From a virus, in the IMG/VR virus record IMGVR_UViG_3300034374_012521, positions 54,057 to 118,056 of that record: a stretch of 64,000 nucleotides of DNA; one strand, 5' to 3'. The position numbers and the translations under genes were made by a program. The notes under the pieces were generated by a model. That model saw only the letters and a list, made by a program, of their open reading frames with translations, had not been told where the DNA came from and ran no database searches. The first letter of the stretch is position 1; every line of letters starts with the position of its first letter. Positions 8,269 through 35,549 of this stretch are shown here, piece by piece.

Positions 8269-8286
8269 CTCGAAAAATTTGTTTTT

Positions 8287-10452: not shown

Positions 10453-10475
10453 AGAAACTAAATAATTGTCGTTTC

Positions 10476-10505: not shown

Positions 10506-10508
10506 ACC

Positions 10509-11210: not shown

Positions 11211-11214
11211 TTTA

Positions 11215-11631: not shown

Positions 11632-12262
11632 TCTCAGATTTATAAGGAATTCCTATTTTGTCCAGCAACTGTTTATAAACTCTTTCAATTTTTTTAGATG
11701 CATCGACTTTTACAAGTTTCCTACTCTTTTTGTATTTTTTAACCAGAGGAAGTGTTTTTTCTTTGTATTCATTAAATCTTTTGGATATAATCTCTGGATC
11801 CTTATCATCGGCCCTATTTTCCTTTTCAGCCCTTTTCATAATCCTTTGTTTTGCCTTGTCCTCATCAAGTTCCAAATAGATCACGTGGCTAAGACCAACT
11901 CCTAACTTTCCTAGGAGTGAATCTAGCAATTTTATTTGCTTTATATTCCGTGGGAATCCATCAATTATAACACCTCTTTCCAGATCAGCTTTGCCTAATG
12001 CTTTCCTAAGCATTCTTACCATTACCCTATCTGGAATAAACTCTCCCCTTTCAACTGTTTTCTTAAGCTCCTTATCCTTGGAGTTCCTAATTAATTCACC
12101 AGTAGAAATATGAGTGAAATCGTTTCTATCAACAAGCTTCTTTGAAATAGTCCCCTTTCCAGATCCCGGAGGTCCCAGAATAACAAGGATCTCTCCTTGT
12201 TTATCTGGGATTTCTCTTTCGTTTATAGAGATGAAATTTTCAAAGCTACGTACCTTATCCAT
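11603..12262 (-). CDS. adk: Adenylate kinase (short LID) with N-terminal capsid-targeting-like extension
   Basis: GPPGSGKGT P-loop, HISTGELIR, IDGFPR, RADD; extra MDKVRSFENFISINE before the kinase core. Confidence 0.92.
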   Translation of the reverse strand: MDKVRSFENFISINEREIPDKQGEILVILGPPGSGKGTISKKLVDRNDFTHISTGELIRNSKDKELKKTVERGEFIPDRVMVRMLRKALGKADLERGVIIDGFPRNIKQIKLLDSLLGKLGVGLSHVIYLELDEDKAKQRIMKRAEKENRADDKDPEIISKRFNEYKEKTLPLVKKYKKSRKLVKVDASKKIERVYKQLLDKIGIPYKSENEEGKEKTS

Positions 12263-12278
12263 TATAAAATTTAATTAT

Positions 12279-14750
12279 TTATGAACCACAGGATAAACAA
12301 TCATCCGGGTTGTCCAAGCTACATGTGAGATCGTTCATAGTTTGCTCAGCTAGAGCTTTTAGATCTTCGTTTGCAGCTGTACTCTTCTGCTCAACCATAG
12401 CTGGTTTGGCTGCAGGAGTTTCTTCTACTTTTTTATACTTACTCGTATCAATACCAAGTCCAGAAAGTGCATCTACTGCAGATTTTGTTCTTAGGTAATA
12501 CATACCGGTTTTAAGACCCAATTTCCAAGAATGGAAGTGAGCTGCAGTAAGTTTAGCAGCATTTACTCCTTCTATAAATAGATTTAATGATTGGGATTGA
12601 CAAATGAACTTACCACGATCAGCAGACATTTCAATTAAGTCTTTTTGCTTAATCTCCCAAACTGTTTTATAAATTTCTTTTATGTCGTCTGGAATATTGG
12701 GAATGTTTTGAACCGATCCCTTGTGGATGATAATCAGATTCTTCATATCTTCGTTCCAAAGACCCAAAGAGATTAAATCAGTAACAAGGTGCTTGTTAAT
12801 AATCACATATTCCCCACTTAGTGTTCTTCTTGTATAAATATTAGACGTAAATGGTTCAAAGGCTTCGTTATTACCCATAATTTGGGCTGTTGAAGCTGTT
12901 GGCATAGGAGCAAGTAGCAATGAGTTTCTTACACCATTCTTCATCACATCCTTTCTTAGCTTTTTCCAATCCCATCTTCCAGAAAGATCTTCGTCATTTA
13001 CCTGCCAAAGATTAAATTGGAATTTACCCTCGCTCAATGGTGATCCCTCAAAAGTTTCATAAGCTCCAAATTTCTTAGCAAGATCTTTAGAAGCTGTCAT
13101 TGCTGCGAAGTAAATTGTCTCAAACAATTCAGAGTTAATCTTTCTAGCTTCATCAGACGTAAATGGTATACCCATTGTTGCATAAAGATCAGCTAAGCCC
13201 TGAATTCCAATACCAATTGGGCGGTGTCTCATATTTGATCTTTTAGTCTCTGCCGTAGGATAGAAGTTTACGTCAATTACCCTGTTGAGATTGACAGCAG
13301 TTTGATATGAAACCTCGTATAGGTAATCGTGGTCAACCTCACACTTTCCTCTAGTTATTTTTGATGTTCTTGCATCTGTCGACTTTAAGAACTTATTAAC
13401 TGGTATGGAGGCCAGGTTACAAACTGCTTGTTCGTCCTTATCTGTGTATTCGATAATCTCACAACATAAGTTAGAAGATTTGATGGTCCCTAAATTCTGC
13501 TGATTTGACTTTCTGTTAGCGGAATCTTTGTAAAGAATATAGGGTGTTCCAGTTTCAATCTGGGATTCTATAATCTTTCCCCAAAGTTCCCTAGCTTTAA
13601 TAGTTTTCTTTGCCTTTCCAGCCTCTTCAGCTGCTATGTACATTTCATTAAATTCCTGACCATAAACTTCATGAAGTCCTGGTACCTCGGAAGGAGAAAA
13701 TAAAGACCACGTTTCATCTTTTTCTACCCTTTCCATAAATAAGTCAGAAACCCAGAGAGCAAGGAACAAATCTCTAGCTCTTCTCTCTTCTTTTCCTGTG
13801 TTCTTTCTTAGATCCAAAAAGTCCTCAACGTCAGCGTGCCATGGCTCTAGGTAAATAGCGAAAGATCCTTTCCTTTTACCACCACCTTGATCAACGTATC
13901 TAGCAGTTTCATTGAATACTTTAAGCATAGGTACAATACCATTGGATTTACCGTTTGTACCCCTGATATAAGAGCCAGTTGATCTTACGTTGTGGATAGC
14001 AAGCCCAATACCACCAGCATTCTGAGAAATCATTGCAACATCAGAAAGAGTCTTGTAGATTCCAGGAATCGAATCTTCCTGCATAGTTAAAAGAAAACAG
14101 GAAGATAGCTGTGGTTTTTTAGTACCAGAGTTAAATAGGGTTGGGGTTGCATGTGTCATCATATGAGTTGAGAGAAGCTCGTATGTTTTCAATGCATTTT
14201 TGATATCGTCTCCCCAAATACCTACCGCAACACGCATGTACATATGCTGAGGGGTTTCTGCTGGAATACCGTGCATTTTAAGGAGATAACTTTTTTCAAG
14301 AGTTTTGAACCCAAAATATTCAAAGTTGAAATCCCTATCGTGGATAATTGCAGAATCAAACTTTTTCTTATTCTTCATTATCACCTCGTAGGTTTCATCA
14401 CCAATAAGACCAGCAGGCTTATTCGTCTCTGGATCGATATAAGAATGTAAATCCTCAATCGTTTCAGAAAATTTCTTCTTTGTAGACTTATGCAATCTTG
14501 AAATAGCAATTCTTGCTGCTAGAATAGAATGGTCTGGGTGACTAGGGATGAGTGAAGCTGCAGTTTCAGCAGCTAGATTATCCAACTCTCCAGTCGAAAT
14601 TCCATCATATATTCCAGCGATTACTTTTTGTGAAATGCCCATCCAATCAACAAAGTCGTTGTTAAGGCCATAAGTCATCTTTTTTACGCGGTTAGAAATC
14701 TTATCAAATCTAACCGCTTCTTTGGATCCGTCTCTCTTAGTTACGTACAT
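12279..14750 (-). CDS. nrdA: Ribonucleotide reductase class Ia alpha subunit
   Basis: N-terminal ATP cone (VTKRDG), THATPTLFN, QLSSCFL, SSNLCCEI, APMPTAST, GMYYLR, C-terminal CLSCGS. Confidence 0.97.
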   Translation of the reverse strand: MYVTKRDGSKEAVRFDKISNRVKKMTYGLNNDFVDWMGISQKVIAGIYDGISTGELDNLAAETAASLIPSHPDHSILAARIAISRLHKSTKKKFSETIEDLHSYIDPETNKPAGLIGDETYEVIMKNKKKFDSAIIHDRDFNFEYFGFKTLEKSYLLKMHGIPAETPQHMYMRVAVGIWGDDIKNALKTYELLSTHMMTHATPTLFNSGTKKPQLSSCFLLTMQEDSIPGIYKTLSDVAMISQNAGGIGLAIHNVRSTGSYIRGTNGKSNGIVPMLKVFNETARYVDQGGGKRKGSFAIYLEPWHADVEDFLDLRKNTGKEERRARDLFLALWVSDLFMERVEKDETWSLFSPSEVPGLHEVYGQEFNEMYIAAEEAGKAKKTIKARELWGKIIESQIETGTPYILYKDSANRKSNQQNLGTIKSSNLCCEIIEYTDKDEQAVCNLASIPVNKFLKSTDARTSKITRGKCEVDHDYLYEVSYQTAVNLNRVIDVNFYPTAETKRSNMRHRPIGIGIQGLADLYATMGIPFTSDEARKINSELFETIYFAAMTASKDLAKKFGAYETFEGSPLSEGKFQFNLWQVNDEDLSGRWDWKKLRKDVMKNGVRNSLLLAPMPTASTAQIMGNNEAFEPFTSNIYTRRTLSGEYVIINKHLVTDLISLGLWNEDMKNLIIIHKGSVQNIPNIPDDIKEIYKTVWEIKQKDLIEMSADRGKFICQSQSLNLFIEGVNAAKLTAAHFHSWKLGLKTGMYYLRTKSAVDALSGLGIDTSKYKKVEETPAAKPAMVEQKSTAANEDLKALAEQTMNDLTCSLDNPDDCLSCGS

Positions 14751-14768
14751 GCTTGGTTTATATTTTTT

Positions 14769-15752
14769 TTAGAAGTCTACGTCCATATCGAACGCATTTT
14801 CGGAGGAATTTTTCACTCCAGCTTTTTGGTATTCACCAACTCTCTTTTCAAAGAAGTTAGTCTTACCCTGCAAAGAAATATTTGCCATGAAATCAAATGG
14901 GTTTTCTGTATTGAAAACTTTTGAACATCCAAGATCTACAAGTAATCTATCAGCAACAAACTCTAAGTATTGTTTCATAAGATCTTGATTCATACCAATT
15001 AGCTTAACAGGCAAAGATTCTGTAATAAATTCTTTCTCGATTTCAAGTGCGCTAAGGATAATTTCCTTGATTCTCTCCTCAGGTACTTTATTAGATAAGT
15101 ATTTGTTGTGTAGGAGTACTGCAAAATCACAGTGCATACCTTCGTCTCTCGAAATAAGCTCGTTTGAGAAGCTTAAACCTGGCATTAGCCCACGCTTTTT
15201 AAGCCAGAAGATCGAGCAGAAAGAACCAGAGAAGAATATACCTTCAACTGCTGCGAAAGCAACAAGTCTTTCTTGGAAATGGTCTGATTCAACCCACTTT
15301 AAAGCCCATTCGGCTTTTTTCTTAACTGCTGGTATTGTTTCAATTGCATTGAACAACATTTTCTTCTCAGCAGGATCAGAAATGTAAGTATCTATCAGGA
15401 GGGAATAAGTCTCAGAGTGGATGTTTTCCATCATAATCTGAAAACCGTAAAAGAATTTTGCCTCTGAATATTGAACCTCCCTAACGAAGTTCTCCGCTAA
15501 ATTCTCGTTTACGATACCATCCGATGCAGCAAAGAATGCCAAAACATGCTTGATAAAGTGCCTTTCGTTATCATTCAATTTGTTTCTCCAATCGTCAATA
15601 TCTGCCGAAAGGTCAATTTCTTCTGCTGTCCAGATACAAGCTTCCTGGTTCTTATACATCTCCCAAATTTCCTGGTGTTGGATAGGGAAAATAACAAATC
15701 TATTAGGATTTTCTTGTAAAATCGGTTCCGGTAGCGAATAGTCCTCCTTCAT
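14769..15752 (-). CDS. nrdB: Ribonucleotide reductase class Ia beta subunit
   Basis: [49 protein letters not shown]. Confidence 0.97.
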
Positions 15753-15777
15753 AATTTAACACTTTGTTTTTTTTAAT

Positions 15778-16245
15778 TTAGTAATTGTTTGCCTGTCTTC
15801 GACGGTTTTCCTCGTTCTTGCTCATGTACATGTTGTACATTTCTTGAGCACTCATTCCAATAGAGGCTGCGTAGTTCATAAAAAAATGGAGCATGTCTAC
15901 GATCTCGAATTTACATTCGATTTTATCAGATTCTGATAAATCCGAAAATCTTTTTTCAGAGTAAGAAGAGTAAGCACTTTTCCATTTTTTCCAGATTGCA
16001 TTCCCATTACCATCTTTGATACCACCAAGGGCATCCGTTGCCTCGTGTATCTCGTCGATTAGAGCGTGATTGTTCATATGCCAAAACTCCATAAGTTCTC
16101 TCAAAGTCATCTCTTTGAAGTTATAGCCATAAACGTTCTCCTGGGTTTCTGCCTGAAGATTTAAAATGTCACCTAGAGTATCTTTAGATTCGGGATAAAG
16201 ATTTTTGATCTGTAGGTCTGCACATTGATTATCTGTATTTGCCAT
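15778..16245 (-). CDS. Dimeric all-alpha dUTPase/dCTPase (T4 gp56-like)
   Basis: ALIDEIHE, WKKWK, KFEIVDMLHF, YMSKNEENRRRQANNY match the gp56-type pattern. Confidence 0.85.
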   Translation of the reverse strand: MANTDNQCADLQIKNLYPESKDTLGDILNLQAETQENVYGYNFKEMTLRELMEFWHMNNHALIDEIHEATDALGGIKDGNGNAIWKKWKSAYSSYSEKRFSDLSESDKIECKFEIVDMLHFFMNYAASIGMSAQEMYNMYMSKNEENRRRQANNY

Positions 16246-16297
16246 ATTTGTCTTTTTGCAATAGTTTTTTAAAATCCCTTCCCGTCTCTAGGTTTTT

Positions 16298-16305
16298 TAT
16301 ATATC
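16298..16305 (-). promoter_or_regulatory. Putative late-type promoter GATATATA
   Basis: Intergenic, upstream of the dUTPase-nrdB-nrdA run. Confidence 0.5.
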
Positions 16306-16342
16306 AAGTGGGTCCCTAAAGTGCGGTGATTTTAGGAAAATT

Positions 16343-17755
16343 CTATGTTAATTTTTTTAATTGTTTCTCCAATCCGTCAATTTCTATCTGTAACTCAAGC
16401 ATTCTCTTTTTTGTTGCCTTTCTTTTCGAGTATAAGTCCTTAATTATGGTCTTTAAAATCGGGTTTTCGTCATCCCCACCGAAAAGGGCAGTGGAGGATG
16501 TTTTTACCCATCCCTCCTTGGCTTCAGATATATCTTTCCCGAGCTTACCTTTATAAACCTCAGGAGAAATTCCCCACTGCACAATTGTATTTGGATACAG
16601 GGAAGCAAAGTCATAACAAGCAACCCATTCATGTAGTCCCTTGATAGGCTCTTTCACATATCCACCAATAAACTTGACATGACTTTCTTCTTTCCTTTCA
16701 TTCACAAAGACCTGATTCCTCTCCAAGAACTTTTTGAGCATCATAACCTCCGTCGCCCAAACGGGGGAAAGAGCCCTGCTTATTTCAACGCGGTTCAGAT
16801 TAGCTATTTTGAAGTAGGTTAAAAGGGTTTTTAACTTTACATCTATATAGTGAACCAGCGCACAGTCAATTACGTTGTAGAGAATAAATTTAGGGAAGTC
16901 AGACTGGTAGAGGTCCCTTAGGGATCCATCATATACTATCTTCTTTAATCCTGTAGCCTTCTCAGCAACATAATCTAATCTATTGCTCTCCTTGATCTTA
17001 ATTGTCCGATCCCATTTTTTATAGATCTCAAGATAATCGACCATTAGCAAATGCATAGGAAGATTGTTCTTTCCAATAAGCCAGTTAGCTGGCGAAATTA
17101 CCTTTGGATCGATACCAAGTCTCTTAGCTCTATTCACCAAATATGGCCAGTCATACCCAAACCAGTTCCACCCAGTTATCAATGGCATTTTAGGAGCCAG
17201 CTTCTTAAAGAAGGTATAAAGCATATCGTACTCGGATTCGAACTGATGATATTTAAAAGACCATTCATCACCCATTGGCTCAAGATACTCGTTGGTCTTT
17301 TTGTAAATGTCCGCTTGCTCCTCAGCTGAAAGTGGATCAAGTCCTAGAATTATTGATTTACATCTATCTGTTGCAATACCAATTGAAAGTACCTTATTCT
17401 TAGCATTTGCGGTATCCAAAGAATCTCCCATCTCGTCGGTCATTTCAACCTCAATATCCACAAAGTACTTTTTTGGGATCTGAAAATCCCAAAGAGACTT
17501 AGTTAAATCTGGGTCTGCCTCTTCTAGGATTTGAACCATCCTATATTTGTCATACTTCTGTGTTTTTACCTTCCTTACAGACATTCCATCCCAGGACTCC
17601 CAATCAGCTTCTCTTCTCCTATCATTGGGTGAGCATTTTTCCCATATAAACCTCTCATCCTCCGGAACTGGAACATCAACAAAAATTAAATCACCTTCCT
17701 CAGAGAAAGATGATACCTTTAAATAAGTTCCCTTGTTTTCAATATCTACTATCAT
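16343..17755 (-). CDS. Family B DNA polymerase, N-terminal subunit of a split enzyme (gp43A-like)
   Basis: ExoI DIEVE, ExoII GWNWFGYDWPY, ExoIII YNVID, GGYVKEP, motif A YDFASLYP; ends in the fingers helix; motifs B and C absent. Confidence 0.88.
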   Translation of the reverse strand: MIVDIENKGTYLKVSSFSEEGDLIFVDVPVPEDERFIWEKCSPNDRRREADWESWDGMSVRKVKTQKYDKYRMVQILEEADPDLTKSLWDFQIPKKYFVDIEVEMTDEMGDSLDTANAKNKVLSIGIATDRCKSIILGLDPLSAEEQADIYKKTNEYLEPMGDEWSFKYHQFESEYDMLYTFFKKLAPKMPLITGWNWFGYDWPYLVNRAKRLGIDPKVISPANWLIGKNNLPMHLLMVDYLEIYKKWDRTIKIKESNRLDYVAEKATGLKKIVYDGSLRDLYQSDFPKFILYNVIDCALVHYIDVKLKTLLTYFKIANLNRVEISRALSPVWATEVMMLKKFLERNQVFVNERKEESHVKFIGGYVKEPIKGLHEWVACYDFASLYPNTIVQWGISPEVYKGKLGKDISEAKEGWVKTSSTALFGGDDENPILKTIIKDLYSKRKATKKRMLELQIEIDGLEKQLKKLT

Positions 17756-26998: not shown

Positions 26999-28522
26999 TT
27001 AGAGATTAACATTAAAGATCTTGTACTTGAACTTTTCGTTCTTGTAGATCTCGATCCTTGCTTCGCTGTGTTTGAGGAGGTAATTCTTATATCTTGGGGA
27101 AGAAAAATCGTCAACAAAGTCAATCACATTAACCTTGTCCTTTCCATCCATTTTTCTCATTCCCCTACCAAGACTCTGCTTAATCAGGACCTCGCTCTTA
27201 TAAGATTCAACTAAGAAAATGTTGTGAAGGTTGTTGATTGAGATACCGGTAGAGAAAGTACCGTATGTTGCAACCAGGATTTTATTCTCGCCATTGGCCA
27301 TCCTAGATTTATATTCCTCCCTGAGGGATTCGTCGGTATCACCATCAACATAAAAGACCTCTTTATCGTTGGTTATCTCTCTGAGCATATTCCAGATTTG
27401 CTTACCGTATTCGTCTTTTACGGATTGGAATAGCACTAAGGAATTCTTAGATGTTTTAGATATGAATTCAACGACATAGTTAAGCCTCTTCTCACTTTCT
27501 ATTACAAGCTTTCTTTCAAGGTTATAAAGTTCATTGCCCTCAAGATTTTGTGAATTAGCTTTTAAATCTGCTAGCTTTCCCTTAATCTCATCATCCAGCC
27601 AATTCATCCGTACTACCTTGATGTGAACTGGTGTTGCATGTTTATTTTTGAAAAGGAAATCTGGGGAAATTTCAACGACAACAGGGCCCAAGAATTGCTG
27701 TATGGTTAAATGGTCAGCTGATCCCCTTTTAGTAAGAGTCCCAGTTAAACCAAATCTCCACTTACTGTGCATACATTTAGCAACAATCTTCTTAATCGAC
27801 ATTGAGTTGGTGTGATGAGCCTCGTCAACAAAAACTGCATCAATCTCCTCAAAGAAATCTTCGTCTTTCTTAACCAATGATTGGAAAGTACCTATAATAA
27901 GGTCACACCCATCTCTAAGTTTACTACCCCCTCCGATTTGTTGAATTCTTACCCCCAGTTCACCAATACCATAGTCTATAAAGTCATCATTTCCTTGGAA
28001 GACTAGGTTAGTGTTTGGTACAATCATTAAGAACTTTCTAATAAGTCCCCTCTGCTTAAGAAAAGCAAAAATCATGAAAGATATAAGGGTCTTACCAGAA
28101 GATGTAGCAATCTCAGATACCGAATATCTGTATTTTACAATTTTCCATGCAGCTTCAACCTGATAATCACGCGGGGTAATTTCTTTGTCGTCAAAAAATC
28201 CATCCACCCATTCCTGGAATTCCTCCAGAGTTAAGTCACTGAGTATTATCTTATCAAGGCCCTCAATGTCAATTTCTATATTAAACTCTTTTCCTATTTC
28301 TAGGACCTCCCTCCAGAGACCAATAGGAACCTTCCAAAAGGCACCTTTCTTTTCTATAAAGCAAATATTACCGTCCCAGATCTTCTTCTTAACCAATGGG
28401 TGAAAATACCAGTTGTGTATTTTCTTGGTTAGAGAGATCTCAATTTGCCTTTTTTCTATCTCATCATTAGATTGAGCAAGTATTAGCCATTGTTGATCTT
28501 CGGATACATTAAACTTAATCAT
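26999..28522 (-). CDS. uvsW: SF2 DNA helicase UvsW-like
   Basis: PRDYQ, ATSSGKT, VDEAH, GLTGT, TFSTGISI, QSLGRGMR. Confidence 0.92.
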   Translation of the reverse strand: MIKFNVSEDQQWLILAQSNDEIEKRQIEISLTKKIHNWYFHPLVKKKIWDGNICFIEKKGAFWKVPIGLWREVLEIGKEFNIEIDIEGLDKIILSDLTLEEFQEWVDGFFDDKEITPRDYQVEAAWKIVKYRYSVSEIATSSGKTLISFMIFAFLKQRGLIRKFLMIVPNTNLVFQGNDDFIDYGIGELGVRIQQIGGGSKLRDGCDLIIGTFQSLVKKDEDFFEEIDAVFVDEAHHTNSMSIKKIVAKCMHSKWRFGLTGTLTKRGSADHLTIQQFLGPVVVEISPDFLFKNKHATPVHIKVVRMNWLDDEIKGKLADLKANSQNLEGNELYNLERKLVIESEKRLNYVVEFISKTSKNSLVLFQSVKDEYGKQIWNMLREITNDKEVFYVDGDTDESLREEYKSRMANGENKILVATYGTFSTGISINNLHNIFLVESYKSEVLIKQSLGRGMRKMDGKDKVNVIDFVDDFSSPRYKNYLLKHSEARIEIYKNEKFKYKIFNVNL

Positions 28523-30334: not shown

Positions 30335-31288
30335 TTAGAGATCTGCGTATAGGTCGTCTAGGGACGATGAAGTTTCTGGTGCTGAAGGTTGGCTGATGCC
30401 CTTATCCTCTTTTGCAGGTTCGGATCCTACCTTTGTTGAAGAAGCTTCATTATAGAAATCGTTCGTTGAACTAGAAGATGAAGTTGTAGTAGAAGATTGG
30501 TTTACACCTCCTAAAACCTCATTAACTAATCTTCCGTCAGGAACTGAATTCTTAATAACATTCATCACACGGTCGGTAGTATTTTGATCCCAATCCTTGT
30601 ATTCAAATTGTGTGAGGTTATCAGGACCTGTTTTAAGGTATTCCATGATTGCATTCATGTCATCCTGATTCTTAGCCATCTTCTTGCCGTTGATCTCGAT
30701 AGCGGTTCTATCACCAACGAATGAGCAAAGATCGTAGTTGTTCCACTCACCAACTTTTCTTGTATGTACTGAGAAAAGTTTACCTTCAAAAAGATCGTAA
30801 GGGTTGCAAGAATCTCCATATTCAGGCTTGAGCTGTGCTTCGAGCATATCGTTTAGCTTACGTCCAAATTTGAAGATCATAATTTTTCCCTCAAGCTCAG
30901 GATTGTGTTTATCCTGTACGATTTGAATGAGTGAGTAGTAGTCTTCCTTTCTAGAAAAACTTCTTGATAATTCTTGGTCTGCTGCTGAATGTGAATTTTT
31001 CAGCTTCCAGAACATGTCCTTAAGTACTGATTTTTTTCCTACCGTTGACGGACAGTCAACTGGAAATCCATCACCTGTTGTTGGATCGTTTAGATAAACG
31101 TAGTACTTGTGGATTTTTGATTTCGTCGGATCGACGTGGTTAGGAAGAAAACGGATCAGCGATTTGTAAACTCCATCCTTTCCGTTTTCCGGATATGGTT
31201 TGTAAAATTCTGTTCCTTCTGAATTCTCCTTTTTTGCTTTCGTTACGAATGCTTCCGCATCCAAATTGAAAATGTCTAAATTACTCAT
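30335..31288 (-). CDS. Single-stranded DNA-binding protein (T4 gp32-like)
   Basis: SLIRFLP, DCPSTVGK, DKHNPELEGKIMIFKFG, NPYDLFEG, NYDLCSF, acidic tail LDDLYADL. Confidence 0.9.
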   Translation of the reverse strand: MSNLDIFNLDAEAFVTKAKKENSEGTEFYKPYPENGKDGVYKSLIRFLPNHVDPTKSKIHKYYVYLNDPTTGDGFPVDCPSTVGKKSVLKDMFWKLKNSHSAADQELSRSFSRKEDYYSLIQIVQDKHNPELEGKIMIFKFGRKLNDMLEAQLKPEYGDSCNPYDLFEGKLFSVHTRKVGEWNNYDLCSFVGDRTAIEINGKKMAKNQDDMNAIMEYLKTGPDNLTQFEYKDWDQNTTDRVMNVIKNSVPDGRLVNEVLGGVNQSSTTTSSSSSTNDFYNEASSTKVGSEPAKEDKGISQPSAPETSSSLDDLYADL

Positions 31289-31329
31289 GATTTTCTCTTA
31301 ATTATTTTTTAAAATCCTTTATTTAATCT

Positions 31330-32112
31330 CTAAGTGTCCCAAATGTTTCCCCTAGACATTATATATCCAAAACTTTTTTCATCTATTTCGTTTTCTGATA
31401 CTTCGGTCTCCCAAACATTCTTACCTCGGAGTGAAACTTTGACAAACGGCCTAGATAAACCAAATTCAGAACTTTCTATGTGATATCTTAGTAAAGTTTC
31501 AGGGTGGAAGTAAATATCGGATAGAATATACTCCTCCAGATAGTCGAACATTTTGCAGTAATGCTCCATTGCATCTCTACCTCCCCAAGCCAATATATCA
31601 TTTACCCCACCTTTCCAATCAAACCCAGGAGGAACATTGATCTTATCCAAGTCCTGTCCTAAATTCAATTCATTGTGAATCTTAATATCCATTCTTCCCT
31701 TGATGACGCAATCGTACTTTTGACCTACCTGGATTTCATATTCTTCCATCAAGGAGTAAGCTTGTCTAATTTTATACCACATCAAAAAAACAGACACTGG
31801 ATTGATCTCACCAGTCTGTGGACCAAACCCCTCATAAGACCAAGCCCTGTCAATAAACTTTCTAATCGCATCAGAACCAAAATCGTCGGTCTTCAAGTGC
31901 TTGGGTGAATACATCTTTATAAGATCGTCAATGGTTAAGGAGTCCACTAGATCTTTAGTTTCAGCATGTAGAGATTGGTTGATTTCACCCGAGGGATTCC
32001 AAGTTGATATGAAAACATCAGTATCATACTTATCTAAAATTTCTGACTTGATAAACGGGAAGGAATCCTGAGCTTCCCTTATTTGACCAGGAAGTAGCAA
32101 GGCAACCCTCAT
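31330..32112 (-). CDS. Putative glycosyltransferase-like protein
   Basis: MRVALLLPGQIRE...DVFISTW...MWYKI...YDCVIKGRMDI...NDILAWG...HPETLL; family typical of polysaccharide loci. Confidence 0.6.
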   Translation of the reverse strand: MRVALLLPGQIREAQDSFPFIKSEILDKYDTDVFISTWNPSGEINQSLHAETKDLVDSLTIDDLIKMYSPKHLKTDDFGSDAIRKFIDRAWSYEGFGPQTGEINPVSVFLMWYKIRQAYSLMEEYEIQVGQKYDCVIKGRMDIKIHNELNLGQDLDKINVPPGFDWKGGVNDILAWGGRDAMEHYCKMFDYLEEYILSDIYFHPETLLRYHIESSEFGLSRPFVKVSLRGKNVWETEVSENEIDEKSFGYIMSRGNIWDT

Positions 32113-32543
32113 GAATAATTCACAATATAATCAGAACATACACCACAACAACTATCAACTTTCTCCTCGTACATCTCAGGTAAAACCGCAATGCTTTTGC
32201 TAATTGGTTGCATCCCAGGAAAAGCCCAAATGAAAGATTTAGAGGTAAGGGTTACCTTGTCGTTTTCGTGCCAAAAAACATTGAGATCTCCATATTCCTT
32301 CAGATAAACCATAGCTGATATGTTTTTACAATGTATCCATAACTTATCCCCTCTTTCTAAAAGCCAAGCAAGATGTATTTTGGTTTCTGGAGAATCGTGT
32401 CCCAAATAGATTGATGCTCCGGAGATCCAAACGTCGATCTCCACATCATACCCCAGATCAAGAGCTTCCTGTATATAGTCAATCGTATTTTCTCTATCCG
32501 GATTTGGACCTTTTAAATTACCTCTATGTGATATTAGCTTCAT
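32109..32543 (-). CDS. Minimal glycerophosphodiester phosphodiesterase (GDPD/PLC-like) protein
   Basis: ISHRGN...ENT...GYDVEIDVW...LGHD...WIHCKN...GVCSDY. Confidence 0.75.
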   Translation of the reverse strand: MKLISHRGNLKGPNPDRENTIDYIQEALDLGYDVEIDVWISGASIYLGHDSPETKIHLAWLLERGDKLWIHCKNISAMVYLKEYGDLNVFWHENDKVTLTSKSFIWAFPGMQPISKSIAVLPEMYEEKVDSCCGVCSDYIVNYS

Positions 32544-32544
32544 A

Positions 32545-33780
32545 TCAGAATATTCGATAGTCTAGATCTTCCGAGAAACATTTATTACCCCACTTTTCTA
32601 TTGCTGCTTTATATTCAGGCTCATCATGATCTCCATCGATAGACTGTCTCATTGCCAAGGCACCAGCTCTAGTTCCCTGTGGGTGTCCATGCATAGCACC
32701 GCCAACGTTTGCCATCCAATCGAAGCTTCCTATTGTTGTATTAATATACTCAACAAGCCCTGGATGCATACCACAGCTTAAAGCAGGAACAATGTTATAA
32801 TTCCAAAGGGTTTGTAAGGTATCTTTTATTTCCTGCTCATCTTGGCTCATATAACCGCCGATCATTCCTGCATGGATCGAATCGACTCCAGACCACCCAG
32901 CGATCTTGCACAAAACCGGCCAGTAAATGTGGTTTGGCGCCCTACGGTCAGTAAAGAATTTATCTCCGCTCTTTTGGAAATGTATCCAGAGATTTGGATT
33001 TTGCTTTCTAATAGCACGATAAATTCCCAGGCCGCTCCACACGTTTATGTGTATTCCGTTCCCACCGTTATCTGCTACAAATTTTGCCCTTTCTAAGGCA
33101 TATGGACTATCACCATTTATGCAAAAGCAATAAATTACGTCGGGCGCATTCTCTTTTAACCAAGATGAAATCAAAGGTACTCTTTCTTCAAGAGGGCAGT
33201 GGGAAGGGTTAGCAAGTAATTCATCCTCTTTGATGAAATTCACACCACCATAAACCATTTCCTTCACAGCTTCGAGAAGAACAGAGGGAGACATACCAAC
33301 CTTAGGTTTAACTATTCCACCTAAGAAAGGTCTTTGTTTTATACCATTAAATTTCCTCCATCCATCAATACCATAGGCCGGATTTAAAGAAAATGATCTC
33401 TCAGCATCCTCAGGCAAAGAAATGTCCAAGACATGACATTGTCTTACTTCCTCTATGTCAACCTGACCACCAGCTATATGACAAAGTATTTGAGAGATCC
33501 CATCTTCTTCCAAATTAAGATTTGCTAGAGGAAAAGCTATCTCGATCTCGCCCTCTTTTAGCTGGGTAAGATCTTCTTCGTTTGCAAGAATAAAGCAACT
33601 GTGATTTTCAAACATCTCATCGGTTTCCCACTCGCTCCTATTATTCGGGTTACCTATACTTTGACCTATAGCCAAATTCCAGGAAGCTTCCCTCAAAGAA
33701 GTTTTAGCTTCCAAAAAGTATTTGACTATAAAATACTGGGATGTATCAAAATCCGCCTTATTTTTAAAAATGCTTATCAT
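32545..33780 (-). CDS. RuBisCO-like protein (form IV RLP)
   Basis: GGIVKPKVG, FIKEDE (carbamylation motif variant), GVDSIHAG, PALSCGMHPG, GGAMHGHPQG. Confidence 0.9.
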   Translation of the reverse strand: MISIFKNKADFDTSQYFIVKYFLEAKTSLREASWNLAIGQSIGNPNNRSEWETDEMFENHSCFILANEEDLTQLKEGEIEIAFPLANLNLEEDGISQILCHIAGGQVDIEEVRQCHVLDISLPEDAERSFSLNPAYGIDGWRKFNGIKQRPFLGGIVKPKVGMSPSVLLEAVKEMVYGGVNFIKEDELLANPSHCPLEERVPLISSWLKENAPDVIYCFCINGDSPYALERAKFVADNGGNGIHINVWSGLGIYRAIRKQNPNLWIHFQKSGDKFFTDRRAPNHIYWPVLCKIAGWSGVDSIHAGMIGGYMSQDEQEIKDTLQTLWNYNIVPALSCGMHPGLVEYINTTIGSFDWMANVGGAMHGHPQGTRAGALAMRQSIDGDHDEPEYKAAIEKWGNKCFSEDLDYRIF

Positions 33781-34100
33781 TCAATTACAAATTTATCACC
33801 AGGAACCGAGGGGGTCTTAACTATAAAAACTTCACAGTCTTCCAAAAATACGGGGTCAGCAATTTCATCTTTCCTTAGAATAAACACATCCCCCGAATTT
33901 AATTCCCGTCCTTGTATAATCATTTTACCCGATCTGAGGAAGTTTATTTCATCCGCTTCCTTATGGTAATGTTTTGGCCACTCTTCGCCCTTGAAGTGCT
34001 TTTTATAACAAATCTCAAAATCACTAGTTTGGTAAGCTACTGGGGAGAAATCTCCAGCATACCAACCTCCCTTCATATCTTCAATTCTATAAACTTCCAT
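33777..34100 (-). CDS. Cupin-domain protein
   Basis: GWYAGDFSP, KHYHKEADEINF, LNSGDVFIL, VKTPSVPGDK. Confidence 0.8.
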   Translation of the reverse strand: MEVYRIEDMKGGWYAGDFSPVAYQTSDFEICYKKHFKGEEWPKHYHKEADEINFLRSGKMIIQGRELNSGDVFILRKDEIADPVFLEDCEVFIVKTPSVPGDKFVIE

Positions 34101-34103
34101 AAA

Positions 34104-34835
34104 CTAAACCAACTTTAAAAATTTATCCAGGTCCTCTGGGGTACCTATCGGAAAGTGAAGGTTATAGAAGAAGGGCAATATTTTCTTTCCACTTTTTATC
34201 ATGTAATTGTAGGTAGGTGCAACATAGAACTCATTATTGTACCGATCGTTTGCTGCTATCATTTGTTCCGCACTTTCCACAAAGTATTTACCATGCTTCC
34301 AAAAATGTAACCCGTTAGTAGCAATGTTGGAAATCACAATTTTTTCCTTCACATCACAGACCTCTCCGTTTGGATCTAACTTAACATAGCTGTTCTTTTT
34401 AGAAGAGGAAAGAAAACATCCCAACAATCCATCACACCCCGTAGTTCTTGCAAAATCTAAAATGAAGTCCAGATTGAAATCCAGAATAATCTGATCACAG
34501 TTAACAACAATGAGAGGCAGATCGTTATTGATCGACTGACTTGCAAAGAGAACCGTTGAAGCTGGTCCTTGTGTTAATGTTGGGGTTGAGAAAATCTCAT
34601 ACGATATTCCCATGTCTGATATATGGGAGTCAAATTCTGTAGGAGAAATATATTCCTCGTTTATCACAAATACAAAGTGTGCATCTTGATGATTTAGGTT
34701 TTTAATCACTGACCTAATCATCGTTTCTCCGCTGACGTCTATAAATGGTTTTATCTGTAGGTATCCAGCGTCGCTGAATCTCCTTCCAGCACCTCCGAGA
34801 GGAATAAGAATGTTAACCTTCTTTGATTGAGTCAT
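34104..34835 (-). CDS. Sugar-phosphate nucleotidyltransferase (GT-A fold NTP transferase)
   Basis: ILIPLGGAGRRF...KPFIDV, TQGPAST, VNCDQ, VKEK, NEFYVAPTYN, IGTPEDL. Confidence 0.85.
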   Translation of the reverse strand: MTQSKKVNILIPLGGAGRRFSDAGYLQIKPFIDVSGETMIRSVIKNLNHQDAHFVFVINEEYISPTEFDSHISDMGISYEIFSTPTLTQGPASTVLFASQSINNDLPLIVVNCDQIILDFNLDFILDFARTTGCDGLLGCFLSSSKKNSYVKLDPNGEVCDVKEKIVISNIATNGLHFWKHGKYFVESAEQMIAANDRYNNEFYVAPTYNYMIKSGKKILPFFYNLHFPIGTPEDLDKFLKLV

Positions 34836-35484
34836 ATAAAAATAAACATATCCAGGTCGAATCTATAATATCATCCAATGGCTTGTTTACATTACCGGAG
34901 GGAGTTATCCATTCGTCCTTATTTTCTTCTAAAATACTAGTGAAAGACCCTAAATTAGTTTCTGGAAATTTGTGATCAATAAGAGAATTATAAAGTTCGT
35001 GTTTTTTTGCATTTCCCTTAAAAGCGAACTTCTTGATAGAGGTGGGTGAATAAACATAGAAATTATCGCTACCTGTATGATCAACTATTTTCTTACGGAG
35101 TAGAGCTGTGGCCATAGAGATATCAATCAAAGCATTACCATTAGAGGCAAAACTTAGTCCTTCCATAGCTACAACAATATCATCACCTGCACAGATATTT
35201 TCTACTTCAGACCAAAATTCATCAACGAGCTCCTGAAAATAATCTATCTTTATCCTTTCCCTTTCCGAGTAGTCTTCTGGCATTTTATCCTTTGACATAA
35301 ACATAAGAACATAGTCTTCCGTTTTGTCTTCAGATAAAACATAGTAAGGTTTTTTAGCATTTTTCTTAAGTGATTCTGCAGTCCGGTCACTTCTTGTTAA
35401 AGACCCCCAAGTGAATTGATTATCCCTTAGAATACAGAATGCGGGTGAATTAAGGGAAAAGTCTATCCCAACTAATGTTTTCAA
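34813..35484 (-). CDS. RuvC-like Holliday junction resolvase
   Basis: VGIDFSLNSP, VAMEGLSF, PTSIKKFA-x-GNAKK, DDIIDS; TTG start; GATATATA at 35510-35517. Confidence 0.8.
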   Translation of the reverse strand: MKTLVGIDFSLNSPAFCILRDNQFTWGSLTRSDRTAESLKKNAKKPYYVLSEDKTEDYVLMFMSKDKMPEDYSERERIKIDYFQELVDEFWSEVENICAGDDIVVAMEGLSFASNGNALIDISMATALLRKKIVDHTGSDNFYVYSPTSIKKFAFKGNAKKHELYNSLIDHKFPETNLGSFTSILEENKDEWITPSGNVNKPLDDIIDSTWICLFLYDSIKEG

Positions 35485-35522: not shown

Positions 35523-35549
35523 AAAAAAGCTCCCCGTTTCCAGGGAGCT
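35523..35549 (-). terminator. Intrinsic terminator
   Basis: AGCTCCC-N8-GGGAGCT followed by a T tract on the minus strand. Confidence 0.75.

What the first reader, a model, noticed from the sequence alone, without database searches (positions are those of the whole stretch)
31330..34835. Phage-encoded five-gene cassette around a RuBisCO-like protein: candidate undescribed nucleotide-sugar pathway
Seen: five co-oriented genes with overlapping or 1-3 nt junctions sit between the RuvC-like resolvase and gp32, in the order NTP transferase, cupin, RLP, minimal GDPD-like, putative glycosyltransferase. Established: characterised form IV RLPs act on phosphorylated enolisable substrates in methionine salvage (enolase/isomerase) or in branched-sugar (apiose-type) catabolism. 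GT-A NTP transferases activate sugar or polyol phosphates, and cupins often epimerise or isomerise sugars. Inference: no methionine-salvage genes are adjacent, and the partners are activating and transferring enzymes. The RLP may therefore work biosynthetically, making an unusual (branched or rearranged) sugar phosphate that is NDP-activated and transferred to virion proteins, DNA or the host surface.
Basis: partly seen in the sequence, partly recalled or inferred. Interest (0 to 1): 0.9.

Follow-up and report, generated by a model that had tools for sequence, protein, structure and literature searches.

The report
Phage RuBisCO-like sugar-activation gene cassette
A large freshwater phage carries a RuBisCO relative that cannot fix CO2, packed with a sugar-activating enzyme, a small metal cupin, a miniature phosphodiesterase and a transferase; the same set recurs in many phages, SAR11 and tiny bacteria and archaea, pointing to an untested sugar-building job for the RuBisCO fold.

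Summary
Five tightly joined minus-strand genes lie at 31330-34835 between a RuvC-like resolvase and gp32, in the order NTP-transferase, cupin, RuBisCO-like protein (RLP), miniature GDPD and a GT-A-fold DUF7796 protein.

The cassette is a conserved module, not a chance neighbourhood. An NTP-transferase lies within 3 kb of the RLP in 77 of 80 viral and 36 of 41 cellular loci. The cellular loci include SAR11, Patescibacteria, DPANN, Verrucomicrobia and Nonomuraea. Only 14 of 80 viral loci share this window's flanks. RLP-NTP, NTP-cupin and GDPD-DUF7796 fusions exist.

The RLP belongs to a separate, well-supported clade, outside the MtnW-like, OiaX-like and form-III-like groups. It keeps the enolising core (K175, K177, K201, D203, E204) and a polar distal site. 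It has lost H294, K334, N123 and T65.

Neighbours elsewhere are methyltransferases, epimerases, aminotransferases and glycosyltransferases. Best reading (about 0.6): a pathway to an unusual nucleotide-activated sugar for glycan decoration. Substrate, product and target are unknown.

The phage RLP clade is already in print (Jaffe et al. 2019) with function unknown. My searches found no paper on the module. This scan has already noted the same cassette in at least 80 other genomes.

The parts
34104..34835 (-). Sugar-phosphate nucleotidylyltransferase (GT-A NTP_transferase), 243 aa
   Evidence: PF00483 E 2.6e-10. phrog_3980 E 1.6e-56. A profile of 31 relatives hits PDB 4evw (V. cholerae NDP-sugar pyrophosphorylase, function not assigned) at E 1.3e-34, then GDP-mannose pyrophosphorylases, RmlA and HddC-type chains at 1e-11 to 1e-8. 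It lies within 3 kb of the RLP in 77 of 80 viral and 36 of 41 cellular loci.
33777..34100 (-). Small single-domain metal cupin, 107 aa
   Evidence: phrog_24762 E 8.9e-30. H44, H46 and E51 are invariant in 21 relatives. Cupin_7 hits 15 of 21 members and Cupin_2 hits 7 of 21. The profile hits small cupins including a 113-aa 'mannose-6-phosphate isomerase' (7zvm, E 1.2e-4). It is fused behind the NTP-transferase as 343-371-aa proteins in about 10 loci.
32545..33780 (-). RuBisCO-like protein (non-carboxylating), 411 aa
   Evidence: PF00016 E 4e-33. All NCBIfam equivalogs are far below cut-off. It sits in a clade of 54 rows with support 100. Residue signature. 2334 homologues at E<=0.001. 121 confirmed IMG/VR stretches.
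32109..32543 (-). Miniature GDPD/PLC-like phosphodiesterase barrel, 144 aa
   Evidence: H6, R7, G8, E18, N19, E35, D37, G48 and H49 are invariant in 36 relatives. The profile hits GDPDs 7e0v and 3i10 at about 1e-4. AF2 pLDDT 97.8. The 22 best VIA matches are GDPD/PLD-type phosphodiesterases or chains carrying such a domain, Z 10.4-7.7. A full-length PF03009 GDPD stands near the RLP in 8 cellular loci.
31330..32112 (-). DUF7796 protein with GT-A fold (probable glycosyl- or phosphoglycosyl-transferase), 260 aa
   Evidence: phrog_13607 E 1.9e-21. 13 of 28 relatives hit PF25072. AF2 pLDDT 87. Foldseek top hits are glycogenin and GT6, E 2e-6, TM about 0.45. VIA gives Mnn9 at Z 11.5, rmsd 3.1, 180 residues aligned, and many other GT-A transferases. 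Fused to the mini-GDPD in L060.
34813..35484 (-). RuvC-like resolvase (upstream flank; overlaps the first cassette gene by 23 nt)
   Evidence: phrog_159 E 3.9e-14. This flank is shared by only 14 of 80 viral loci.
30335..31288 (-). gp32-type single-strand DNA-binding protein (downstream flank)
   Evidence: PF08804 E 1.8e-12 and phrog_224 E 2.2e-33.
35528..35549 (-). Terminator-like hairpin upstream of the RuvC-like gene; possible 5' limit of the transcription unit
   Evidence: Consensus scan: 9-pair stem with 6 G-C pairs and a T-run. No such site was found on the minus strand inside the cassette. Sites in the region are not above the shuffle expectation.

Best explanation
The five genes are one copy of a widespread, mobile biosynthetic module. 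It makes an unusual nucleotide-activated sugar (or sugar-like phosphate) and attaches it to a glycan.

Inferred division of labour:
- The RLP uses its retained Mg2+/carbamate core (K201, D203, E204, with K175 and K177) to enolise a keto-sugar phosphate. This would isomerise or epimerise it.
- The substrate's far end is probably anionic too, because the distal site stays polar (K or R at 295, H327, S379).
- The metal cupin acts as a second isomerase or epimerase.
- The NTP-transferase couples the resulting sugar phosphate to a nucleotide.
- The GT-A-fold DUF7796 protein transfers it.
- The miniature GDPD cuts or remodels a phosphodiester on the precursor or on the product.

Shown here: family and fold assignments, conserved catalytic residues, linkage, fusions and glycan-gene context. 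Inferred: the order of steps, the reaction of each enzyme, the substrate, the product and the acceptor.
For: Linkage. In 80 viral loci the NTP-transferase is within 3 kb of the RLP in 77, the cupin in 74, the mini-GDPD in 59 and DUF7796 in 30. In 41 cellular loci the figures are NTP 36, cupin 13 and mini-GDPD 22. A canonical GDPD is present in 8 cellular loci. Only 14 of 80 viral loci share the RuvC/gp32 flanks.

Redundancy. The 118 RLPs fall to 90 at 90% identity and to 37 at 70%.

Fusions. P0123 (667 aa, 54% identical) is RLP plus NTP_transferase. NTP-cupin proteins of 343-371 aa occur in about 10 loci, and a GDPD-DUF7796 fusion occurs in L060.

Context. Recurrent neighbours are:
- SDR epimerases (27 viral loci)
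- Methyltransf_24, FkbM and TylF methyltransferases
- DegT aminotransferase and UDP-GlcNAc 2-epimerase
- GT2 and UDP-sugar dehydrogenase
The Pelagibacter locus has a GT9 heptosyltransferase, a HAD-NTP fusion and a CMP-sugar-type cytidylyltransferase. The Nonomuraea locus has a GT2.

RLP-less versions. Cultured cyanophages carry RLP-less versions: NTP-transferase, DUF7796 and mini-GDPD in S-CAM9, with the cupin too in SynMITS9220M01. HAD phosphatase or kinase genes accompany them. So RLP and cupin look like an exchangeable substrate-supply part.

Residues. All 54 module-clade rows keep K175 and K177, and 53 of 54 keep K201, D203 and E204. Other positions: H294Q in 53, K334Y in 53, N123G in 54, T65N in 54, position 295 K in 45 and R in 8, H327 kept in 51, S379 kept in 53.

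RNA. Contigs from RNA libraries of three freshwater studies match parts of all five genes without a mismatch. They bridge the GDPD/RLP and cupin/NTP junctions. This is weak evidence, because DNA carry-over is not excluded.
Against: - No enzyme of this RLP clade, cupin family, mini-GDPD or DUF7796 has been assayed, and no product is known.
- In this window the cassette sits among DNA-replication and recombination genes, not in a glycan island.
- The 78.8-kb record holds only one other glycosyltransferase-like domain, about 21 kb away.
- The minimal five-gene set has no kinase, phosphomutase or phosphatase, so how a nucleotidylyltransferase substrate arises is open.
- A phosphodiesterase has no standard place in nucleotide-sugar synthesis.
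- DUF7796 is present in only 30 of 80 viral loci and 1 of 41 cellular loci within 3 kb.
- The GT-A match does not separate glycosyltransferases from nucleotidyltransferases by more than about 1.5 Z.
- The roles given to residues 295, 327 and 379 (distal phosphate site) are partly recalled. One search shows only that R295 and H327 are substrate-binding.
Confidence: 0.6

Rival explanations
1. The module makes a CDP-alcohol or polyol-phosphate type donor, in the style of teichoic acid or phosphocholine decoration. The NTP-transferase activates a non-anomeric phosphate made by RLP and cupin (a C4-C5 keto- or polyol-phosphate). DUF7796 and the mini-GDPD then form or trim a phosphodiester on the acceptor.
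For: - A phosphodiesterase-family enzyme is part of the core: 59 of 80 viral and 22 of 41 cellular loci, plus a canonical GDPD in 8 cellular loci.
- It is fused or overlapping with DUF7796.
- GT-A NTP-transferases that act on alcohol phosphates appear among the weaker profile hits: IspD, inositol-1-P cytidylyltransferase, LicC and PntC.
- DHBP synthase, which makes a C4 keto-phosphate from ribulose-5-P, occurs in 6 viral loci. In S-SKS1 the stretch matching the NTP-transferase is annotated as DHBP synthase.
- The DUF7796 model also resembles IspD-type enzymes at Z 9-10.
Against: - The strongest relatives of the NTP-transferase with an assigned substrate are sugar-1-phosphate enzymes: GDP-mannose pyrophosphorylases, RmlA and HddC at 1e-11 to 1e-8. 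IspD and LicC score 3e-5 to 5e-4.
- The best match, 4evw, has no assigned substrate.
- No CDP-alcohol phosphotransferase or LicD/TagF-type gene was seen among the clusters I annotated. Only about 40 proteins were scanned.
Confidence: 0.15
2. The RLP and cupin work as in the MTA-isoprenoid shunt of Rhodospirillum and Rhodopseudomonas. That pathway uses an RLP 1,3-isomerase followed by a cupin methylsulfurylase. The viral pair would act on a 5'-deoxy- or 5'-methylthio-pentose phosphate derived from SAM by-products, either to salvage it or to feed a 5-deoxy/5-thio sugar into nucleotide activation.
For: - An adjacent RLP-cupin pair is an experimentally shown pairing (PMC5893883, passages read).
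- The Nonomuraea island carries an AdoHcyase-like NAD-domain protein, a dNK-like kinase and a radical-SAM gene near the module.
- SAM-dependent methyltransferases, which generate SAM by-products, are frequent neighbours.
- APH-family kinases, the family I recall as that of MtnK, occur in 6 viral loci.
Against: - The module RLPs are a separate clade from the MtnW-like group.
- In the MtnW-like rows the distal site is non-polar: 295 P in 7 of 14, and 327 I, V or L in 12 of 14. The module clade keeps K or R at 295 and H327. That argues against a methylthio or methyl tail.
- No IF-2B/MtnA, PNP_UDP_1, Aldolase_II or ARD is present in the record.
- The viral cupin hits no NCBIfam model.
- No labelled DeepYkr reference sequence could be put in the tree, so that clade was not tested directly.
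Confidence: 0.08
3. In this phage lineage the cassette builds a sugar donor for DNA hypermodification (glycosylated bases), not for a surface or virion glycan.
For: - Here, and in 14 of 80 viral loci, the cassette lies between RuvC-like and gp32 genes, next to primase and helicase genes.
- A DUF1599 'nucleotide modification associated' domain protein occurs in 8 related viral loci.
- No other sugar-pathway genes stand nearby in this record.
Against: - The same module sits in cellular glycan loci of SAR11 and others.
- In most viral loci it is surrounded by glycan-type methyltransferases, glycosyltransferases and epimerases.
- No ThyA-type hydroxymethylase or ThyX is in the 78.8-kb record. The record is only about 28% complete, so absence is not shown.
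Confidence: 0.07
4. The RLP is an auxiliary carbon-metabolism gene: a real RuBisCO working in CO2 fixation or in the AMP/nucleotide-salvage pathway of form III enzymes.
For: The best NCBIfam and PDB matches are form III enzymes (rubisco_III 167.8 bits; 2cwx E 5.4e-37). The module also occurs in CPR and DPANN genomes, groups in which Jaffe et al. describe RuBisCO forms working in a nucleotide-consuming pathway (PMC6389311).
Against: - The score is a third of the equivalog cut-off (497).
- H294, K334, N123 and T65 are replaced in 53-54 of 54 clade members.
- No IF-2B-type ribose-1,5-bisphosphate isomerase is in the record.
- IF-2B-RuBisCO fusions found (P0157, P0159) are 32-33% identical to the window RLP and were left out of the tree by the length filter, so their clade was not tested.
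Confidence: 0.02

Closest known systems
'Form IV-like' RuBisCO-related proteins of phages and Beckwithbacteria (Jaffe, Castelle, Dupont and Banfield 2019, Mol Biol Evol, PMC6389311; abstract and passages read)
   Same: Same protein clade. It is phage-borne, some carriers are myoviruses, it is highly divergent from other RLPs, and it groups with Beckwithbacteria sequences. In my tree the Beckwithbacteria locus L099 falls inside the module clade.
   Different: In the passages I read, the paper leaves the function unclear and does not describe the NTP-transferase/cupin/GDPD/DUF7796 neighbourhood. Its supplementary figure S1 could not be seen and may show gene maps. The passages I read name no cellular carrier other than Beckwithbacteria; the SAR11, DPANN, Verrucomicrobia and actinomycete carriers come.
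MTA-isoprenoid shunt pair: DeepYkr RLP (5-methylthioribulose-1-P 1,3-isomerase) plus cupin methylsulfurylase of R. rubrum and R. palustris (PMC5893883, passages read)
   Same: An RLP and a small cupin encoded side by side and acting in consecutive steps on a keto-pentose phosphate.
   Different: The module RLP is in another clade and keeps a polar distal site. No MtnP or MtnA is present. The constant partner here is an NTP-transferase, which that shunt lacks.
Bifunctional type II phosphomannose isomerase / GDP-mannose pyrophosphorylase (AlgA/ManC type; recalled, not fetched)
   Same: An N-terminal GT-A NTP-transferase followed by a C-terminal metal cupin that isomerises a sugar phosphate. This is the same domain order as the NTP-cupin gene pair and the 343-371-aa fusions.
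   Different: No member of the viral cupin family hit a mannose-phosphate-isomerase Pfam family among the 15 families listed for 21 members. The AlgA/ManC pathway has no RLP and no phosphodiesterase.
RLP-less cassettes in sugar islands of cultured Kyanoviridae cyanophages (SynMITS9220M01, S-CAM9, DSL-LC03, B3, S-SM2, Bellamy)
   Same: Homologous NTP-transferase (28-41% identity), mini-GDPD (39-49%), DUF7796 (25-33%) and, in SynMITS9220M01 and Bellamy, the cupin (42%), in one gene row.
   Different: No RLP gene: tblastn of the RLP against 50,697 phage records found nothing. HAD phosphatase domains or genes, and a kinase, stand where the RLP would be.
Characterised RLP enzymes: DK-MTP-1-P enolase MtnW and 3-oxo-isoapionate-4-phosphate decarboxylase OiaX (NCBIfam models)
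   Same: The RuBisCO large-subunit fold with K175, K201, D203 and E204 kept, used for enolisation chemistry rather than carboxylation.
   Different: Scores are far below the equivalog cut-offs: 119.4 against 409, 89 against 513.6 and 124.6 against 700. They fall in different clades. They are catabolic or salvage enzymes without a nucleotidyltransferase partner.

Membership tests
Bona fide RuBisCO (forms I-III carboxylase) | Full set of catalytic residues (K175, K177, K201, D203, E204, H294, H327, K334, N123, E60, T65) | tested here: not met
   The alignment to P. horikoshii form III and the 54-row clade table give H294Q, K334Y, N123G, T65N and W66P. E60 aligns with G39. K175, K177, K201, D203, E204 and H327 are kept.
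Bona fide RuBisCO (forms I-III carboxylase) | Score above the NCBIfam equivalog cut-off | tested here: not met
   rubisco_III 167.8 bits against 497.45, and PRK13475 94.1 against 489.
RuBisCO large-subunit superfamily (RLP in the broad sense) | PF00016 catalytic domain above Pfam's gathering score | tested here: met
   115.4 bits against 30.1. The N-terminal domain PF02788 scores 19.7 against 20.7, just below.
Phage/Beckwithbacteria 'form IV-like' clade of Jaffe et al. 2019 | Groups with phage-borne and Beckwithbacteria sequences, apart from other RLPs | tested here: met
   A clade of 54 rows (support 100) holds the window RLP, the 14 other viral rows of A4 and 19 cellular rows, Beckwithbacteria L099 among them. 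FastTree only, and no labelled reference sequences from the paper.
MtnW/YkrW 2,3-diketo-5-methylthiopentyl-1-phosphate enolase | NCBIfam equivalog score, clade membership and methionine-salvage gene context | tested here: not met
   119.4 against 409 and 89 against 513.6. Outside the MtnW-like clade. No MtnA, MtnP, MtnB or MtnD families in the record.
DeepYkr 5-methylthioribulose-1-P 1,3-isomerase (R. rubrum type) | Clade membership with characterised DeepYkr sequences | tested here: inconclusive
   No labelled DeepYkr sequence could be fetched. The distal-site residues differ from the MtnW-like rows, but this was not compared directly.
OiaX 3-oxo-isoapionate-4-phosphate decarboxylase | NCBIfam equivalog score and clade | tested here: not met
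   124.6 against 700. The OiaX-like clade (P0222, 524 bits) is separate.
Sugar-phosphate nucleotidylyltransferase (PF00483) | Domain above the gathering score, with the N-terminal G-x-G-x-R...K nucleotide-binding signature | tested here: met
   40.8 bits against 21.2. G15 and K29 are invariant, and G17 and R19 nearly invariant, in 31 relatives.
Glycerophosphodiester phosphodiesterase (PF03009 GDPD) | Pfam domain above the gathering score | tested here: not met
   No GDPD hit for the window protein or for any of 36 relatives scanned singly.
Glycerophosphodiester phosphodiesterase (PF03009 GDPD) | GDPD barrel fold with the HRG / EN / ExD / HD catalytic motifs | tested here: met
   H6, R7, G8, E18, N19, E35, D37 and H49 are invariant. 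The profile hits solved GDPDs at E 7.5e-5. VIA Z 10.4, rmsd 3.3, 137 residues aligned over the whole GDPD chain. It is about 60% of normal length, so it is a stripped-down form.
GT-A glycosyltransferases | GT-A fold | tested here: met
   Foldseek E 1.8e-6 to glycogenin, TM about 0.45. VIA Z 11.5 to Mnn9, with 92 chains at Z >= 8.
GT-A glycosyltransferases | DxD metal/nucleotide-sugar motif and transferase activity | tested here: inconclusive
   The conserved residues are D32, Y133, D134, R140, D142 and D172. There is an RxD rather than a clear DxD. Nucleotidyltransferases of the same fold score within 1.5 Z.
Type II PMI-GMP (AlgA/ManC) architecture | NTP-transferase followed by a mannose-6-phosphate-isomerase cupin | tested here: inconclusive
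   The domain order is the same in the fusions. The cupin shows only generic cupin families (Cupin_7 15 of 21, Cupin_2 7 of 21) and a weak hit to a small 'mannose-6-phosphate isomerase' chain (7zvm, E 1.2e-4).

The most novel reading that the evidence does not exclude
This clade of RuBisCO-like proteins is the first anabolic branch of the RuBisCO superfamily. It would be an enolising isomerase or epimerase acting on a doubly anionic keto-sugar (for example a ketose bisphosphate). Together with a cupin and a dedicated nucleotidyltransferase, to which it is sometimes fused, it would create a so far unknown nucleotide-sugar. Phages, SAR11, CPR bacteria and DPANN archaea would use that sugar to decorate surface or virion glycans. 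A miniature GDPD would leave or edit a phosphodiester in the product.
Probability: 0.4. Interest if true: 0.85.

Novelty: new variant of a known kind. Interest (0 to 1): 0.7.

Why it matters
RuBisCO-like proteins are known only from salvage and catabolic pathways. The large phage clade reported in 2019 has had no proposed function. Its near-obligate linkage, and occasional fusion, to a nucleotidyltransferase, a cupin and a mini-phosphodiesterase inside glycan loci turns 'function unclear' into a defined, testable pathway hypothesis.

The module is common in aquatic phages: 2334 homologues in the protein search and 121 confirmed IMG/VR stretches. It also occurs in SAR11, one of the most abundant bacterial groups in the ocean. 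A new activated sugar would therefore bear on phage-host recognition and on strain-level surface variation in plankton. It would also add a new reaction type to the RuBisCO fold.

Cultured carriers make experiments possible. Nonomuraea rosea JCM 17326 carries the module, and cyanophages such as SynMITS9220M01 carry the RLP-less version.

Tried and rejected
- GenBank phages: blastn of the whole cassette and tblastn of the RLP found no match.
- Single-sequence PDB searches of the cupin, mini-GDPD and DUF7796 gave nothing significant. A DUF7796 profile also found no solved relative.
- NCBIfam gave no family for the cupin, mini-GDPD or DUF7796.
- The Atlas search of DUF7796 returned only viral DUF7796 or 'capsular polysaccharide biosynthesis' clusters.
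- Complex prediction on RLP plus NTP-transferase gave no verdict (score 0.00). This is no evidence either way.
- Tabita et al. 2007 (PMC2168653) is not held. My recollection that a 'IV-GOS' RLP clade might be this family is untested.
- Paper search was badly framed and gave plant receptor papers only.
- Papers searched for the module. None of the listed titles or abstract starts describes an RLP with a nucleotidyltransferase, cupin or GDPD. Supplements are closed.
- Rfam found no RNA family in the window. The promoter/terminator scan was not above shuffles.
- PGAP and UniRef names of the Pelagibacter and Nonomuraea proteins are generic.
- Prevalence in the family of the Pelagibacter genome G001 was 2 of 201 genomes searched at E <= 1e-40. 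This shows a patchy accessory gene. Many of those genomes are incomplete.
- RNA-library contigs leave parts of the cassette uncovered, and run X15 carries many differences, so it comes from a relative. Nothing is concluded from gaps or depth.
- Legionella carriers, mentioned by earlier notes of this scan, were not tested here.

Full report
OBSERVATION. One search lists five co-oriented minus-strand ORFs at exactly the reported coordinates:
- 34104-34835 (243 aa)
- 33777-34100 (107 aa)
- 32545-33780 (411 aa)
- 32109-32543 (144 aa)
- 31330-32112 (260 aa)

The junctions are a 3-nt gap, a 4-nt overlap, a 1-nt gap and a 4-nt overlap. The first gene overlaps a RuvC-like ORF by 23 nt (phrog_159, E 3.9e-14). 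The last lies 41 nt from a gp32-type gene (PF08804, E 1.8e-12). A terminator-like hairpin lies upstream of the RuvC-like gene, and none lies on the coding strand inside the cassette. That scan is not above shuffles.

The window is part of a 78.8-kb IMG/VR virus record that CheckV rates about 28% complete. Its helicase is closest to huge uncultured phages and to Prevotella Lak phages. A nearly identical phage contig is binned with a Saprospirales MAG (L087). Together these hint at a Bacteroidota host, but a binning artefact is equally possible. DNA runs holding half or more of the stretch's sampled words are mostly freshwater metagenomes (12 of 14 rows; one urban, one marine; none was laid).

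WHAT THE FIVE PROTEINS ARE.

(1) NTP-transferase. It hits PF00483. A profile of 31 relatives hits PDB 4evw, an unassigned Vibrio 'NDP-sugar pyrophosphorylase', at E 1.3e-34. It then hits GDP-mannose pyrophosphorylases, RmlA and HddC-type chains. IspD and LicC types come much lower.

(2) Cupin. It is a 107-aa single-domain cupin with an invariant HxHx4E metal motif. Only generic cupin families are detected. The nearest solved chains include a 113-aa 'mannose-6-phosphate isomerase'.

(3) RuBisCO-like protein. It hits PF00016 (E 4e-33), but every NCBIfam equivalog is far below cut-off.

(4) Mini-GDPD. It is a 144-aa protein without a Pfam hit. The HRG, EN, ExD and GHD motifs are invariant in 36 relatives. 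The family profile reaches solved GDPDs (E 7.5e-5). The very confident model (pLDDT 97.8) aligns over whole GDPD barrels (Z 10.4, rmsd 3.3, 137 residues). The 22 best matches are GDPD/PLD-type enzymes or chains carrying such a domain. Foldseek agrees weakly (best E 2.2e-3). It is a stripped-down GDPD barrel with its catalytic residues intact.

(5) DUF7796 protein. It has 260 aa, and 13 of 28 relatives hit PF25072. Its model (pLDDT 87) has a GT-A fold. Foldseek puts glycogenin and GT6 first (E 2e-6, TM about 0.45). VIA puts Mnn9, hyaluronan synthase and SpsA at Z 11.5-10.6, with GT-A-fold nucleotidyltransferases at Z 9-10.

A CONSERVED, MOBILE MODULE. The RLP has 2334 homologues at E <= 0.001 in the word-indexed search. 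It has 121 confirmed stretches in IMG/VR, of which 80 loci were kept.

By tblastn with the window's proteins, counts within 3 kb of the RLP are:

| Family | 80 viral loci | 41 cellular loci |
|---|---|---|
| NTP-transferase | 77 (70 on the same strand) | 36 |
| Cupin | 74 | 13 |
| Mini-GDPD | 59 | 22 |
| DUF7796 | 30 | 1 |

Only 14 of 80 viral loci share the RuvC and gp32 flanks. Four of the 80 come from contigs labelled as giant-virus MAGs.

A scan of one genome per prokaryotic species found 42 loci. One (L087) is the phage contig mentioned above. The other 41 include a complete Pelagibacter chromosome, Patescibacteria including Beckwithbacteria, Woese- and Nanoarchaeota, Verrucomicrobia, Elusimicrobia, Nonomuraea rosea and Azospirillum oleiclasticum. 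Eight cellular loci, including archaeal loci L114, L118 and L105, have a full-length PF03009 GDPD. Several cellular contigs are short, so these counts are lower bounds. The 118 RLP ORFs reduce to 90 at 90% identity and to 37 at 70%.

Fusions tie the parts together:
- P0123 (667 aa) is RLP plus NTP-transferase.
- NTP-cupin proteins of 343-371 aa occur in about 10 loci.
- L060 has a GDPD-DUF7796 fusion.

In the family of the Pelagibacter genome G001 the RLP was found in only 2 of 201 genomes searched. It is therefore a patchy accessory trait.

CONTEXT. Recurrent extra neighbours in viral loci are:
- SDR epimerases (27 loci)
- methyltransferases directly after the RLP (Methyltransf_24 type in 21 loci, FkbM type in 16, TylF type in 9)
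- DegT aminotransferases
- UDP-GlcNAc 2-epimerases
- GT2 enzymes
- a UDP-sugar dehydrogenase
- DHBP synthase (6 loci)
- an APH-family kinase (6 loci)

The Pelagibacter locus has a HAD-NTP-transferase fusion, a GT9 heptosyltransferase, a 2-hydroxyacid dehydrogenase and a CMP-sugar-type cytidylyltransferase. The Nonomuraea module is flanked by an integrase and a transposase. It is followed by a GT2, an AdoHcyase-like NAD-domain protein and a dNK-like kinase.

Cultured cyanomyoviruses carry RLP-less versions. SynMITS9220M01 has an NTP-transferase-phosphatase fusion, the cupin, DUF7796, the mini-GDPD and a kinase in a row. S-CAM9 has NTP-transferase, DUF7796, HAD and mini-GDPD. So NTP-transferase, mini-GDPD and DUF7796 form a wider module, and RLP plus cupin is one of several exchangeable substrate-supply parts.

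In this window the cassette stands alone among replication genes. The record has one other GT2-like domain about 21 kb away, and no GT1 or SDR epimerase.

THE RLP CLADE AND ITS ACTIVE SITE. The tree has 137 rows:
- 102 full-length representatives from the all-protein HMMER search
- 15 viral RLPs
- 20 cellular RLPs

It puts all module RLPs in one clade of 54 rows with support 100. This is FastTree only, with midpoint root and no labelled references. Outside groups were labelled by NCBIfam best hits of representatives. They are form-III-like (445 and 408 bits), MtnW-like (361 bits against 409) and OiaX-like (524 against 700). All are below cut-off, hence '-like'.

Residue counts for the 54 module rows:

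| Position | Module clade (54 rows) |
|---|---|
| K175, K177 | kept in 54 |
| K201, D203, E204 | kept in 53 |
| H327 | kept in 51 |
| S379 | kept in 53 |
| G381, G403 | kept in 53 |
| G404 | kept in 51 |
| 295 | K in 45, R in 8 |
| H294 | Q in 53 |
| K334 | Y in 53 |
| N123 | G in 54 |
| T65 | N in 54 |
| W66 | P in 54 |
| G380 | C in 53 |

E60 aligns with an invariant glycine. The MtnW-like rows instead have K177C (10 of 14), 295 P (7 of 14) and 327 I, V or L (12 of 14).

My inference is that the enzyme keeps the metal/carbamate enolisation machinery and cannot carboxylate. Unlike the methionine-salvage enzymes, it keeps a polar, cationic distal pocket. That suggests a substrate with a second anionic group. 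The roles of R295 and H327 as substrate-binding residues are stated in PMC8698309 (passages read). The assignment to the distal phosphate, and the hydrophobic pocket of MtnW, are recalled.

MECHANISM. I read the cassette as a donor-synthesis part (RLP, cupin, NTP-transferase) and a transfer or processing part (mini-GDPD, DUF7796). The NTP-then-cupin order mirrors bifunctional phosphomannose isomerase / GDP-mannose pyrophosphorylases (recalled). The RLP-cupin pairing mirrors the MTA-isoprenoid shunt (PMC5893883). In both precedents the cupin and RLP act on keto-sugar phosphates just before or near an activation step. The exact substrate, the product, the place of the phosphodiesterase and the acceptor are not shown by anything here.

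Rivals are:
- a CDP-alcohol or phosphodiester decoration
- an MTA/5'-deoxynucleoside-derived pathway
- DNA hypermodification
- true carbon metabolism

They are weighed in their own sections.

EXPRESSION. Contigs from metatranscriptome libraries of three freshwater studies (X16-X18) match the stretch with no differences. They touch all five genes. One bridges the GDPD/RLP junction (32482-32667) and one bridges the cupin/NTP junction (33990-34141). DNA carry-over in RNA libraries is not excluded, so this is weak support for transcription.

KNOWN OR NEW. Jaffe et al. 2019 reported about 80 non-redundant phage 'form IV-like' RLPs grouping with Beckwithbacteria, and left the function unclear. My four literature searches listed no paper describing the module. 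Supplements were closed.

Earlier notes of this same scan describe the same cassette in at least 80 other genomes with the same reading. I re-derived the linkage, fusion and clade results independently here.

I did not see three things in the short summaries of those notes. They are the residue contrast with the MtnW-like clade, the canonical GDPD replacing the mini-GDPD in some archaea, and the RLP-less cassettes in cultured cyanophages. They may nevertheless be in the full notes.

LIMITS. There is no biochemical evidence. The record is a fragment, so absences in it are not absences in the phage.

Noticed in passing
L061 and L085 (IMG/VR loci), compared with window 30335-35484: These two loci share the window's phage backbone and cassette order: RuvC 68-72%, NTP 69-71%, cupin 69-70% and gp32 78-79% identity. 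Their RLP is only 51-53% identical and belongs to the other RLP subclade. This looks like an RLP allele swap inside an otherwise syntenic cassette.
   Followed up: no
window 9166-10452 (-): A 428-aa ORF holds the only other glycosyltransferase-like domain of the record (PF00535, E 1.9e-10, at window about 9940-10320). It lies about 21 kb from the cassette.
   Followed up: no
L087 (contig binned with a Saprospirales MAG): It carries the same phage region with 63-97% protein identity, including RuvC-like, gp32 and primase. This is either a host hint (Bacteroidota) or a phage contig mis-binned into a MAG.
   Followed up: partly
P0178, P0224, P0157, P0159 (representatives): Other RuBisCO-family fusions turned up: TIR domain plus RLP (583 aa), RLP plus APH-family kinase (1265 aa), and IF-2B isomerase plus form-III-like RuBisCO (726 and 742 aa).
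   Followed up: no
L122 (Nonomuraea rosea JCM 17326), about 6800-16400: The RLP module lies on an island flanked by a phage-type integrase and a transposase. It sits together with a GT2, an AdoHcyase-like NAD-domain protein, a dNK-like kinase and a radical-SAM gene. This is a cultured organism in which the module could be tested.
   Followed up: partly
L037 3287-3919 and five other viral loci; cyanophage S-SKS1: DHBP synthase (RibB family, E 1.2e-73) occurs in the same islands, a few kb upstream of the RLP module. In S-SKS1 the stretch matching the NTP-transferase is annotated as DHBP synthase.
   Followed up: no
window 26999-28522 (-): A 507-aa helicase is closest to huge uncultured phages (LR756500, 44%) and to Prevotella Lak megaphages (about 35%). 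This fits a large genome, of which the 78.8-kb record is about 28%.
   Followed up: no
L123 (Azospirillum oleiclasticum), G003:C91:4507-5643: The RLP match there contains one in-frame TGA. My stop-to-stop ORF at L123 was anomalous: 745 aa with a very long branch. It may be a broken or misassembled copy.
   Followed up: no
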